Source: Paraspadella gotoi (lineage: Eukaryota > Animalia > Chaetognatha). From it: a DNA stretch of 64,000 nucleotides. Where the stretch lies: contig CM119267.1 of the NCBI GenBank assembly GCA_051294375.1, positions 13,029,081-13,093,080 of the forward strand, written 5' to 3'. Of this stretch, positions 25,101 to 28,100 are shown one piece after another. Below the pieces are notes generated by a model. It saw only the letters and a program-made list of their open reading frames with translations, was not told the DNA's origin and made no database searches. Made by a program: the position numbers and the translations under genes. Each line of letters begins with the position of its first letter. The stretch's first letter is position 1.

Positions 25101-28100
25101 CCGTGTCCGTTTGCGAGTGACTCCAAATAAATGCGTCATGGCAACGGGGGGACATGTGTGATGCCTGGGGTGTGAGGCATCTCCTGACAGCTGGCGCTCA
25201 GGGCTTTGGACCTGCAGTGACCACCCCATGTCACCTTCACACTTTAACCAGCGTGACCGTGAGGGGATTGAACCTGGAACTCATGGTTGGTGACCGAGTA
25301 CTTAGCTGTCCAAGCCAATGGGATGAGCTGAGTTTCATCAAGCTATACGGGAGGCGAATTTAAGATTTGCCACACATGCCCCCCCCAAAACAGCACACTG
25401 GGGTCCTCAAGCCCAAAGTGACTCTCTTGAGAGGAGATGGACTCATTGCCACAGAGAGTGAGCGAGAAGTAGGGCATAGGCGTGGGATGCATACCCTTAA
25501 GGGACGACATGAGTGACAGTACGCAGCGATTGCATGTTCGATAGTAGGGGTCACCACTTATGGAAACGGGGGGACATGCGTGTTGCCTGGTGTGTGAGGC
25601 ATTTCCCAACAGCTGGCACTCAGGGCTTTGGACCTGTAGTAACCACCCCATGTCACTGGCGTGTTTATGCCGACACCATCACACTTTAACCAGCATGACT
25701 GCGAGGGGAATGAATCCGGAACTCACGGTTGGTGAACGAGTACTTAGCTGTCCAAGCCATTTGGACGAGCTGAGTTTCACCAAGCTATATGGGAGGCGAA
25801 TTTAGGATTTGTGTGGACGAACAAATATAACACGCAACCTCGGTCAAACCACTTGACCTTACCAAACTTACCCTCGCTCAAATTCCACCACTTATTTATG
25901 GTCAAAACGTTGACCTTTACGGTCAAACGTTGACCTTGTAAATATCATCATTATAGACTTAGCAGCTGAGCATTTTGATTGTTATTGTTTATAACTTTGT
26001 TGAAGAATAAATCATTCTTACTCTGAAACTTGTTGTGTCCACAATCCACAGCGTACCATATCCCATTGGATAAATATTTTTTATATTCTTTCCTCATTCT
26101 ATAGCTAAGTACTTGACGTTTATTATATTTTAATTTCATAAGATTAATTTGATATTTACTTATCTAAAACGACCTTTCTTTAATGGTCTTCCAATTTCAT
26201 TTTCATTAAAAAACTGAATCTTTAAAAAAAAATTCTAAATTAATTACTCATTGATTACTAAAAATTATTAAAATTATTTTACACCATTAAATTACGAATT
26301 ATCTGGAAATCCTTATGATATAAAATAATTATTCAAGACAGTCAAGAACATGCTCAGGACAGTATTTTTTTCTAATTGGACAAATTGTATAATGAAAAAT
26401 TAAGATTTACAATTAAAAAAATAAATAAAAAATCATTCAGAAATTACTCAACATTACAATAATTCAGATACGCCATTGATTAGACCATTAATAGGGATTT
26501 CTTATGATGTAATTTTTTTTTAAATTCAATCAAGAACACACTGAATTATATTTATTAAATATTTAAAGTATAGTAAAGTTTTTTTTGTGTCACTCGCGAA
26601 CGGACACGGGTTATTAAAACAAAAAAACGTGTCAAAATTAATTATTTTAAAAACTACTCAAATGTTAAAATATGCTGAGCGGTAAAATATATATTTATCG
26701 ATATATTTCACTCTGTACAACTTGACAAACGATCTTGATTTCAGATCGAGTTAAACGGGAAAATGCTTTGTCACCGTCGTAGCTAAAAAGGAAAGGGAGA
26801 AATTAAAGAAAGAACGACGTTTCGATATCGGCATTCACGCGATTTCGCTCACTGATGTGAGAGTTAATGAAAAGCGGAACTAGCTTGACAAGAAGGGAGG
26901 AAAAAGTGCAGAGAGAGAGAGAGAGAGAAAGAATAAAAGAAAGAAAGAAAGAAAGAAAGAAAGAAAGAAAGAAGGAAACGACTGCATTTAACGCCGCGAG
27001 TACTTTTCGGTCGGTCCGTCGGTATGTCTTTCCGTCGGTCTGTCCCACATACGTTAAAAATGCTAGTGCCACCTTCAGGAAATCTTAAAACTATAAAGAA
27101 TATATAACATAGTGTTCTGGCAGCAAGACTTAAAGCTGCCTCGCTGCTGTTCATCGTTCATCGTCTCAATGGCTGAGCAGGTTAAATCATTTCGTTACAA
27201 CCGTGCGTCCCGTGTTCGGTCGCTGGGTGTCCCAGTTCTAGCTTAAATGTGACGGAGCCGGTCTAAACGTGCCAGTGACAGGAGGCGGTTACTGAGAGTC
27301 CGCAGCCCATACGCCAGTTGGTGAGATACCCCGCGCCCCGGCCCAGTCCGGGTGTTACAGGCAATCCTCCCGTTGCAATAGTGAATTAATCCTTTCTTTT
27401 TCGTTGTTTCAATTTATTAGAGACTGGCAAATTTTGAATTTTCATCGGCGTTTTAACAGTTTTAAATAATTGTGAAACAAATGCATAAAGGTAGAGTGTG
27501 TGAGAGAGAGAGGATAAAAGTTTTCCGACACAGAGGTAAGATAGAATAGTGAGGACAGGTTGAAGCTAAGGACAGATTGAGTGAGTTGTGAAAAGAAATG
27601 AGACTTTTTAGAGAGAGAGAGAGAGACAGACAGAGAGATGTACGAAAATTCTAAAAGTCAATTATGAACAACATAACATAACAACATTAATTTGTAAACA
27701 AAATTAGTTTTATGCTATTTAATTTTTGCAGTAGGCAATATTTATTAAGGAGTAGAAAAATTTTTAAATTTAACTTTAATTAAAATTCTAAAAGTGAGAA
27801 ACGAACAACATTATATTAATGAACATTTATGCAATAAAAAAATTAATAATAAATTTTATAATTTATGCAGTAGGCCATATTTATACTAGTACTAAACCAA
27901 TAAATGTTAAAATTTCAAAACAGTTTTTTCTAAGATTTTTTTGCAGATTTGGATTTGTCATAAAAAGTTGATAAAAAGAAATATAACTCTTTTTGAAAAA
28001 TTCCTTCATTAAGTGGGTAAAAAATTAGAAAAAGCTATATTTTAAGCTGAAAATTAACTTTTTATATATTAAATATAGTTTTTTAAATTTTTAAACCACT

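What the first reader, a model, noticed from the sequence alone, without database searches (positions are those of the whole stretch)
25612..25694. Strong covariation across four or more LTR subfamilies supports a functional type-P5 twister with a minimal P1 hairpin
Seen: primary sequence diverges across copies but pairing is kept. Pseudoknot T1 is TGG/CCA here, CGG/CCG (24.3k, 24.7k, 27.2k, 53.5k, 56.6k), CTG/CAG (43.7k) and CCG/CGG (23.7k). T2 is GC/GC, versus AC/GT at 56.6k. P2 is ACAC/GTGT or ACGT/ATGT. P3 is CAGTGAC/GTYACTG, CTGTAAC/GTTACAG or CTGTAGT/ACTACAG. P4 is CAGG/CCTG, CCTGA/TCAGG or CCCGA/TCGGG. P5 is GCTGG/CCAGC, GCAGT/ACTGC, CACACAAG/CTTGTGTG or GTTGGC/GCCAAC. UAA and GA are invariant. 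P1 is only a 6-8 nt hairpin. Known: these are the conserved elements of the twister consensus, and P1 is partly dispensable in engineered twisters. Inference: self-cleavage was under long-term selection.
Basis: partly seen in the sequence, partly recalled or inferred. Interest (0 to 1): 0.9.

Follow-up and report, generated by a model that had tools for sequence, protein, structure and literature searches.

The report
Twister ribozymes in animal LTR mini-retrotransposons
The end repeats of a family of short, protein-free jumping elements in an invertebrate genome carry a conserved twister-ribozyme fold that likely cuts the element's RNA, probably only when its two ends pair up; a self-cutting RNA in such end repeats has so far been described only in plants and with a different ribozyme, and cutting is untested here.

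Summary
Real, and larger than the flagged 83 bases. 25612-25694 (minus strand) has every element of a P5-permuted twister. It lies in the 5' LTR of a non-coding TRIM with a tRNA-Trp primer site, polypurine tract and 4-bp target duplication. Nine copies from five diverged LTR subfamilies lie in the window. On an unfitted alignment 96.8% of T1/T2/P3 cells pair and 7 of 12 pairs show double changes (0/500 shuffles). The core is 62% identical between subfamilies, the flanks 39-40%. Four have a 3-nt P2 strand. Rfam scores stay below threshold. P1 is not a workable hairpin (+1.6 to +6.3 kcal/mol) but is self-complementary in 7 of 8 variants, so the two LTR copies likely fold as a strand-swapped double twister. 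That would release a unit-length RNA that could circularise, as plant LTR retrozymes do with hammerheads. Cleavage, expression and circles are untested. The scan noted P5 twisters and a dimer idea before, in clam Penelope-like elements, but not in LTR elements. Eight literature searches found no LTR element with a twister.

The parts
25612..25694 (-). Flagged P5-permuted twister motif with P3 hairpin (copy C1)
   Evidence: Rfam Twister-P5 22.3 bits, gathering score 37.6, E 0.011 on 291 nt
25666..25667 (-). Predicted cleavage site U^AA
   Evidence: twister cleaves at U-A of the UAA loop (PMC8501958); position; untested
25668..25675 (-). P1 segment, 8 nt, self-complementary end to end
   Evidence: self-duplex -9.5 vs forced hairpin +2.9 kcal/mol
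25559..26050 (-). 5' LTR of TRIM C, interrupted near its 5' end by a nested ~240-bp insertion (about 25811-26045)
   Evidence: loose ends at 25809
25544..25556 (-). Primer-binding site of TRIM C, 12 of 13 nt matching the complement of the 3' end of human tRNA-Trp
   Evidence: against the tRNA-Trp template printed in 10.1101/400127
25377..25386 (-). Polypurine tract of TRIM C
25137..25374 (-). 3' LTR of TRIM C; its twister has lost about 20 nt of core (T1, P1, UAA, P2 5' strand, T2). Element 25137-26050 is flanked by the duplication GCGT
   Evidence: LTRs 88.8% identical excluding gaps
24173..24821 (+). TRIM B: LTR 24173-24406, PBS 24408-24420 (12 of 13 to tRNA-Trp), internal part without ORF, PPT 24579-24589, LTR 24592-24821; duplication TTAT; twisters at 24282-24354 and 24698-24771
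   Evidence: (LTRs 97.8% identical excluding gaps); empty-site joint and many different flanks at the ends
53434..53666 (+). Solo LTR F (B subfamily), duplication AGAG, intact twister elements
56522..56747 (-). Solo LTR G; twister 56549-56631 with T2 AC/GT; no clean target duplication found
27113..27377 (+). Solo LTR D, TG...CA ends, duplication ATAG; twister with broken P4
43612..43835 (+). LTR E (ends approximate, no duplication found); twister lacks the 3' T2 bases
23649..23903 (-). LTR A (ends approximate); twister lacks T2 and the P3 5' strand

Best explanation
The flagged stretch is a P5-permuted twister fold inside the LTR of a non-coding TRIM family, and it likely cuts the element's transcript when the copies in the two LTRs pair into a strand-swapped double ribozyme, releasing a unit-length RNA that would be circularised and copied by a probably CsRn1-like Gypsy helper. 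Shown: the fold's elements and their compensatory changes; the LTR-PBS-internal-PPT-LTR layout with 4-bp duplications; sense orientation of the motif in both full elements; self-complementary P1 segments. Inferred: (1) in a transcript with two LTRs the two P1 segments form one 6-8-bp duplex, and each catalytic core takes its GA/T1 strand from one LTR and its UAA/P2/T2/P3/P4 half from the other; (2) both UAA sites are cut, giving a 416-nt monomer for element B with PBS and PPT inside; (3) a host ligase closes it, and the circle, holding one P1 segment, is protected from re-cutting; (4) tRNA-Trp-primed reverse transcription round the circle rebuilds two LTRs. Solo LTRs and the flagged element itself, whose second LTR has lost the core, would cut poorly or not at all.
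For: Covariation on the MAFFT alignment, not fitted to the structure: 96.8% of 94 T1/T2/P3 cells pair, 7 of 12 pairs have double changes, 0 of 500 shuffles reach this, and slid controls give 20-43%. Hand-registered set of six lineages including family H: 99 of 107 cells pair, 13 of 19 pairs have double changes, 0 of 20,000 shuffles. Core identity between subfamilies is 62% against 40% and 39% in the flanks. Rfam Twister-P5 aligns GA, UAA, T2 and L4 of the flagged copy in register. Contigs of four public runs show the C family nearly uniform over the motif. The flagged copy departs from at least 96% of summed depth in the three DNA runs at 25618, 25637 and 25641, so its P3 defects are private; variants at the catalytic G and the U stay under 1% there. 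P1: centre dinucleotide Watson-Crick in 7 of 8 distinct segments (25% expected each), self-duplex -3.7 to -11.0 against forced hairpin +1.6 to +6.3 kcal/mol; P3 loops show nothing similar. For element B the swapped fold is fully nested and scores -196.8 kcal/mol, against -193.5 (two monomers, P1 open) and -185.7 (P1 closed). Precedent: metazoan hammerheads with a 1-2-bp helix III and a palindromic loop cleave as dimers (PMC4209133; PMC7229834). Plant LTR retrozymes have the same layout and make circles (PMC7761336). A tRNA-Trp PBS with 4-bp duplications marks the CsRn1 clade (PMC2582038).
Against: No cleavage, transcript end or circle was observed; only contigs could be laid. Rfam scores are below the gathering score for the flagged copy, the whole-window scan missed it, and copies B2 and G get no twister hit at E<=5. 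Subfamilies B, F and G have a 3-nt P2 strand where the Rfam model has four pairs. Only 4 of 9 copies are intact. The flagged copy's MFE lacks the twister helices. In the unconstrained ensemble of element B the P1 duplex has probability 0.0, and the free MFE (-217.1) lies 20 kcal/mol below the ribozyme folds, pseudoknots not counted. The swapped fold leads the best monomer fold by only 3.3 kcal/mol. The predicted circle folds no better than shuffles (z -0.82), unlike the highly paired retrozyme circles. The P1 segments share ancestry, so 7 of 8 overstates the independent evidence, and CG/UA differences can arise by CpG decay; one segment has a GA centre. Shuffle controls ignore relatedness. No autonomous partner was found.
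Confidence: 0.55

Rival explanations
1. An active monomeric twister with a 1-2-bp P1 hairpin. Each LTR cuts on its own, to free the element's RNA from host read-through or to make circles.
For: All conserved elements can form within one LTR. P5, P3 and P4 form in the MFE of isolated B2 and G copies (z -2.25 and -1.83). PMC8501958 states that inefficient cleavage occurs without P1 and that variants with poor P1 pairing are active.
Against: Closing P1 as a hairpin costs +1.6 to +6.3 kcal/mol. It does not explain why the innermost loop bases, which cannot pair within a hairpin, are self-complementary in 7 of 8 variants. The published short-P1 cases have open ends, not a tight loop.
Confidence: 0.25
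2. The twister fold is kept in the LTR as a structural element (for packaging, genome dimerisation through the palindrome, or priming) and cuts rarely or not at all; replication uses ordinary R-repeat strand transfer.
For: A 3-nt P2 strand in the most abundant subfamily; sub-threshold or no Rfam hits. Palindromes drive RNA dimerisation in retroelements (established knowledge; search listing). Cutting both LTRs at one site would remove the terminal redundancy that normal LTR reverse transcription needs.
Against: The catalytic G, the UAA and both pseudoknots are kept across subfamilies whose flanks are about 40% identical, which a purely structural role would not require.
Confidence: 0.12
3. A relic: an ancestral LTR captured a twister, for example from a Penelope-like or RTE element, and the similarity persists by descent without selection.
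For: 5 of 9 copies are damaged. A separate twister-bearing non-LTR repeat family (H) occurs in the same window as a possible donor type.
Against: Compensatory double changes in T1, T2 and P3, excess conservation of the core, and a near-uniform intact motif in the amplified C family.
Confidence: 0.08

Closest known systems
Plant LTR retrozymes (Cervera et al. 2016, PMC4918200, listing only; described in PMC7761336 and PMC5680766, passages read)
   Same: Non-coding LTR element, ribozyme in each LTR, PBS, PPT, 4-bp target duplication, probable Gypsy helper.
   Different: Animal host; twister instead of type III hammerhead; tRNA-Trp instead of tRNA-Met PBS; LTRs about 230-265 bp and a 416-nt monomer against about 350 bp and 600-1000 nt; probable dimer requirement; circles not shown.
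Type-P5 twister ribozyme (Rfam RF02684)
   Same: Permutation opening at P5; GA, UAA, T1, T2 and the L4 layout align in register.
   Different: 7-bp P3 hairpin absent from the Rfam model; P1 of 6-8 nt instead of a long stem-loop; 3-nt P2 strand in subfamilies B, F and G; below the gathering score.
Metazoan non-LTR retrozymes and Penelope-like hammerheads (PMC7229834, PMC4209133, 10.64898/2026.07.22.740005; passages read)
   Same: Animal retroelements whose ribozyme has a tiny stem with a palindromic loop beside the cut site and works as a dimer.
   Different: They use type I hammerheads and lack LTR, PBS and PPT.
T-variant twisters of Perere-3 in Schistosoma mansoni (PMC8501958; abstract and sections 3, 17, 19 read)
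   Same: Twister in an animal retrotransposon, weak P1, a P3 stem that starts similarly.
   Different: Non-LTR RTE element, type-P1 arrangement, one ribozyme at the 5' end, insertion begins at the cut site.
Animal TRIMs (biv-TRIM, PMC6934838; Helenus and Ajax, PMC10886601; passages read)
   Same: Short non-autonomous LTR elements of invertebrates with solo LTRs; animal Helenus makes 4-bp duplications and is tied to Gypsy helpers.
   Different: No ribozyme reported ('ribozyme' occurs 0 times in PMC6934838 and once, in a reference, in PMC10886601).

Membership tests
Twister ribozyme | UAA at the cut site and catalytic GA | tested here: met
   UAA in 8 of 9 copies, GA in 9 of 9
Twister ribozyme | Two pseudoknots T1 and T2 from an 8-nt L4 | tested here: met
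   T1 pairs in 8 of the 8 copies that retain it, T2 in 6 of 9 copies; double changes in both
Twister ribozyme | 4-bp P2 and a P4 stem | tested here: inconclusive
   met in the flagged copy; 3-nt strand with a bulge in B, F, G; P4 broken in D
Twister ribozyme | P1 helix next to the cut site | tested here: inconclusive
   unstable as a hairpin, stable as a two-copy duplex
Twister ribozyme | Site-specific self-cleavage | not testable with these tools
   only contigs could be laid
Rfam Twister-P5 (RF02684) | Score at or above 37.6 bits | tested here: not met
   22.3 bits for the flagged copy; no hit for B2 or G. The model has no P3 stem.
TRIM (non-autonomous LTR retrotransposon) | Two terminal direct repeats, element under 1 kb, no ORF | tested here: met
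   B is 649 bp; C is about 675 bp without its insertion
TRIM (non-autonomous LTR retrotransposon) | PBS after the 5' LTR, PPT before the 3' LTR | tested here: met
   both elements; 12 of 13 nt to the tRNA-Trp complement
TRIM (non-autonomous LTR retrotransposon) | Target-site duplication and dispersed copies | tested here: met
   4-bp duplications at B, C, D and F, none clean at A, E, G; 62-159 contigs with unlike flanks at the ends in the DNA runs listed, and an empty-site joint
LTR retrozyme | Self-cleaving ribozyme motif in each LTR, sense strand | tested here: met
   motif in both LTRs of B; deleted core in the 3' LTR of C; activity untested
LTR retrozyme | The ribozyme is a type III hammerhead | tested here: not met
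   twister architecture; no hammerhead hit in the Rfam scan
LTR retrozyme | Abundant unit-length circular RNA with a stable fold | tested here: inconclusive
   RNA not testable; predicted circle 57% paired, z -0.82
CsRn1-clade Gypsy (as helper) | tRNA-Trp PBS and 4-bp duplication | tested here: met
CsRn1-clade Gypsy (as helper) | Autonomous element with CHCC Gag sharing these ends | not testable with these tools
   no genome held; no gag-pol ORF recognised among the window's ORFs

The most novel reading that the evidence does not exclude
These are animal LTR retrozymes run by an obligate double twister. The two LTR copies swap strands through a palindromic P1, cut the transcript to unit length and pass it on as a circular RNA, replacing R-repeat strand transfer. 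The autonomous CsRn1-like Gypsy parents may carry the same ribozyme in their LTRs.
Probability: 0.35. Interest if true: 0.9.

Novelty: new variant of a known kind. Interest (0 to 1): 0.78.

Why it matters
Reviews state that LTR retrozymes are mainly plant elements with hammerheads and that animal retrozymes lack LTR, PBS and PPT. An invertebrate LTR family with a twister in the same place would show that the ribozyme-in-LTR strategy arose independently with a second ribozyme class. It would give the twister a concrete role beyond RTE 5' ends. A palindromic P1 would be the twister counterpart of the double hammerhead, a switch that cuts two-LTR transcripts and spares circles and the many solo LTRs in host introns. 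Each step is directly testable with short in vitro transcripts. Rfam misses these motifs, so similar ones may be common and overlooked.

Tried and rejected
No whole genome is held for this window, so no genome-wide alignment or R-scape test. Pattern scans for relatives: viral contigs 0 hits in 3 scans; prokaryote genomes 0; metagenome contigs 1 hit, L001, rejected as chance because it lies inside a 265-codon open frame on the same strand with no GA/T1 context. No RNA holder listed among public runs; run X9 is RNA only by guess and was not used as expression evidence. Within-family variation was too low for a covariation test; the largest minor variants sit on the CpG in P1 (1-5%). 'Goes back' joints were not taken as circles or tandem arrays, because the two similar LTRs produce them. 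Contig depth was not taken as a copy number; it only shows the LTRs are far more repeated than the unique flank. The opposite strand was rejected: the PBS, PPT and catalytic bases fix the sense, although antisense folding is equally stable. A Penelope pseudo-LTR reading was rejected for the nine copies because of the PBS, PPT, solo LTRs and 4-bp duplications. Rfam miRNA and snoRNA hits were rejected as microsatellite or chance matches. No tRNA gene in the window. Loose descriptor hits in AT-rich DNA were rejected. In one search I used one copy per lineage (6 of 14 twister-like copies) and set the P2 and P4 registers by hand; P5 was not counted in either covariation test.

Full report
Setting. 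The window is AT-rich eukaryotic DNA with microsatellites. An exon at 42042-42347 encodes part of an SLC6 transporter; its best named hits are a bryozoan, molluscs, an annelid and a nemertean at 53-66% identity, so the host is a bilaterian invertebrate, probably lophotrochozoan. No whole genome is held.

The flagged motif. Read on the minus strand, 25694-25612 gives P5, a junction, P2, GA, T1, an 8-nt P1 segment, UAA, P2, T2, a 7-bp P3 hairpin, P4 with the loop TCCAAAGC, and the closing P5 strand. All pairs form except a C-A at the base of P3. Rfam's Twister-P5 model aligns GA, UAA, T2 and L4 in register and treats P3 as an insertion: 22.3 bits, gathering score 37.6, E 0.011 on 291 nt. It was not listed in the whole-window scan. 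A strict descriptor, tuned on these copies, finds 4 hits in the window and 1 in 25 shuffled windows.

The element. The motif lies in the 5' LTR of a TRIM at 25137-26050 (-), flanked by GCGT, with a PBS two bases after the LTR and a G-rich PPT before the 3' LTR. A second TRIM lies at 24173-24821 (+), flanked by TTAT, with LTRs 97.8% identical. Each PBS matches 12 of the first 13 letters of the human tRNA-Trp antisense template printed in 10.1101/400127 (one passage read). Solo LTRs at 27113-27377 and 53434-53666 have 4-bp duplications; three more LTRs (23.7k, 43.7k, 56.6k) have no clean duplication. A tRNA-Trp PBS with 4-bp duplications is described for the CsRn1 clade of Gypsy (PMC2582038, passages), the likely helper. 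Contigs of four coded public runs confirm sharp ends at 24173, 24406 and 25138 with 62-159 contigs of unlike flank in the DNA runs listed, an empty-site joint for B, and summed depth hundreds to thousands of times that of the unique flank (not a copy number).

Covariation. A profile of the nine copies finds no further copy of this family in the window. They fall into five subfamilies (C, D, A/E, B/F, G) that align over their length. Identity between subfamilies is 62% in the core and 40% and 39% on either side. On the MAFFT alignment of all nine, T1, T2 and P3 give 96.8% of 94 cells paired, 7 of 12 pairs with double changes, 0 of 500 shuffles as high, and 20-43% for slid partners. With one copy per lineage plus family H and hand-set registers, 99 of 107 cells pair and 13 of 19 pairs have double changes; exact per-helix permutation p values are T1 0.017, T2 0.067, P2 0.017, P4 0.003 and P3 0.05. 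These controls ignore relatedness, and the number of independent events is small. The pattern is real, but it is not an R-scape result.

Only 4 of 9 copies keep all elements (25.6k, 24.7k, 53.5k, 56.6k). The other five are damaged as listed in the observation check. Subfamilies B, F and G have a 3-nt P2 strand, and Rfam gives B2 and G no twister hit. The flagged copy's MFE lacks the twister helices (z -0.68), while B2 and G form P5, P3 and P4 (z -2.25 and -1.83). In the run contigs the C family is nearly uniform over the motif. The flagged copy departs from at least 96% of depth in the three DNA runs at 25618, 25637 and 25641, two of them in P3, so these defects are private to it. Selection therefore acted on the transposing masters, not on inserted copies.

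P1. The segment between T1 and UAA is always 6 or 8 nt. As a hairpin with a 4-nt loop it costs +1.6 to +6.3 kcal/mol; paired with a second copy of itself it gives -3.7 to -11.0. The two centre bases, which cannot pair within a hairpin, are Watson-Crick complementary in 7 of 8 distinct segments (CG, UA or GC; one GA), against 25% in random hairpin-capable segments; P3 loops show no such pattern. A contig variant of family C (table 5c) differs from the flagged segment at four of eight places and is still fully self-complementary. These segments are related, and CG/UA differences could be CpG decay, so this is suggestive only. In a two-LTR transcript the swapped arrangement is fully nested. For element B it scores -196.8 kcal/mol against -193.5 for two monomers with P1 open and -185.7 with P1 closed. 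In the free ensemble the swapped P5 helices dominate (0.92 and 0.76 against 0.0), but the P1 duplex does not form and the free MFE is 20 kcal/mol lower, pseudoknots uncounted. The precedent is close: metazoan hammerheads have a 1-2-bp helix III with a palindromic loop, cleave as dimers and are thought to spare monomeric circles (PMC4209133, passages; PMC7229834, passages). I reached this reading and saw that the scan's unchecked notes e1-9132506 and e1-9935298 describe P5 twisters with an abnormal P1 in clam Naiad elements, the first proposing pairing of two copies. I did not test those notes, and they are not independent support.

Mechanism. Shown: anatomy, covariation, element layout, P1 self-complementarity. 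Inferred: transcription through both LTRs; double-twister folding; cutting at both U^AA sites to give a 416-nt monomer for B; ligation to a circle, as shown with RtcB for hammerhead retrozymes (PMC7229834); tRNA-Trp-primed reverse transcription by a Gypsy helper. Cutting both LTRs at one site removes terminal redundancy, which a circular template would make unnecessary. The predicted circle is not unusually stable (z -0.82), which counts against a full retrozyme likeness. My odds: fold under selection 0.88; family cleaves in some form 0.8; dimer preferred 0.55-0.6; circular intermediate 0.5.

Comparison and novelty. Plant LTR retrozymes have the same layout with type III hammerheads and a tRNA-Met PBS; animal retrozymes lack LTR, PBS and PPT (PMC7761336; PMC6765202; PMC5680766; 10.64898/2026.07.22.740005; all passages). 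Twisters are reported at 5' ends of RTE elements (PMC8501958, abstract and sections 3, 17, 19; PMC7761336), in viroid-like circles (10.1101/2022.07.19.500677, passages) and in RNA viruses (PMC13725137, passages). PMC10085705 (passages) confirms that the P5 permutation is known. A review of RNA dimers does not mention twister (PMC7357161). Animal TRIM papers report no ribozyme. Eight searches showed no LTR element with a twister and no twister dimer. The library lacks most subscription papers, and I did not see Roth et al. 2014, the twister crystal-structure papers (core layout recalled) or any supplement; their lists could hold such copies. Scan look-ups found no note on LTR or TRIM twisters.

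Verdict. It works like an LTR retrozyme but is not a member by the hammerhead criterion, and it is a twister by architecture though below Rfam's threshold. New variant of a known kind; interest 0.78.

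Noticed in passing
window 39232-39450 (-), 39570-39729 (+), 43849-44330 (-), 54477-54637 (-), fragments at 1-48 and elsewhere: A second twister-bearing repeat family (H): P5-type without P3, P1 segment AGGCCT (perfect palindrome), T2 AC/GT, Rfam Twister-P5 27.6 bits. 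AT-rich, no PBS or PPT seen; two tandem units 309 nt apart and one head-to-head pair. It looks like a non-LTR retrozyme or Penelope-type repeat with a twister; compare scan notes e1-9132506 and e1-9935298.
   Followed up: partly
window 24392-24406 with about 24540-24550; 25137-25151 and 25558-25572 with the C internal part: The internal part of B carries a 10-bp complement of the LTR 3' end (-13.7 kcal/mol; 1.3% of shuffles as good), which closes the internal part into one domain. C is weaker (19% and 2%).
   Followed up: partly
first 40 bases of the LTRs (e.g. 24175-24195, 43614-43634): Every LTR subfamily appears to open with a GC-rich hairpin around an AT-rich, TATA-like loop, followed by a conserved TTGG block (seen by eye; not tested).
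   Followed up: no
window 25811-26045: A ~240-bp repeated element with short inverted ends is nested in the 5' end of the C LTR; high contig depth.
   Followed up: no
window 28585-34269: A palindrome of about 5.7 kb with long blocks 96-100% complementary around a 289-nt centre; a recent foldback or an assembly artefact.
   Followed up: no
window 19300-51000 (+): Exons of an SLC6 (SNF) transporter gene whose best named relatives are lophotrochozoan. LTRs B, D and E lie on the sense strand of its introns, so an active monomer would cut the pre-mRNA. Ankyrin-repeat exons lie at 13.4-15.4 kb.
   Followed up: partly
window 46468-46753, 48010-48156, 63908-63983: Arrays of an 18-bp tandem unit in both orientations.
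   Followed up: no
loose ends at window 25464-25530: Some contigs join the C-family PBS side to other internal sequences, so the same LTR serves other internal parts, possibly an autonomous element.
   Followed up: no
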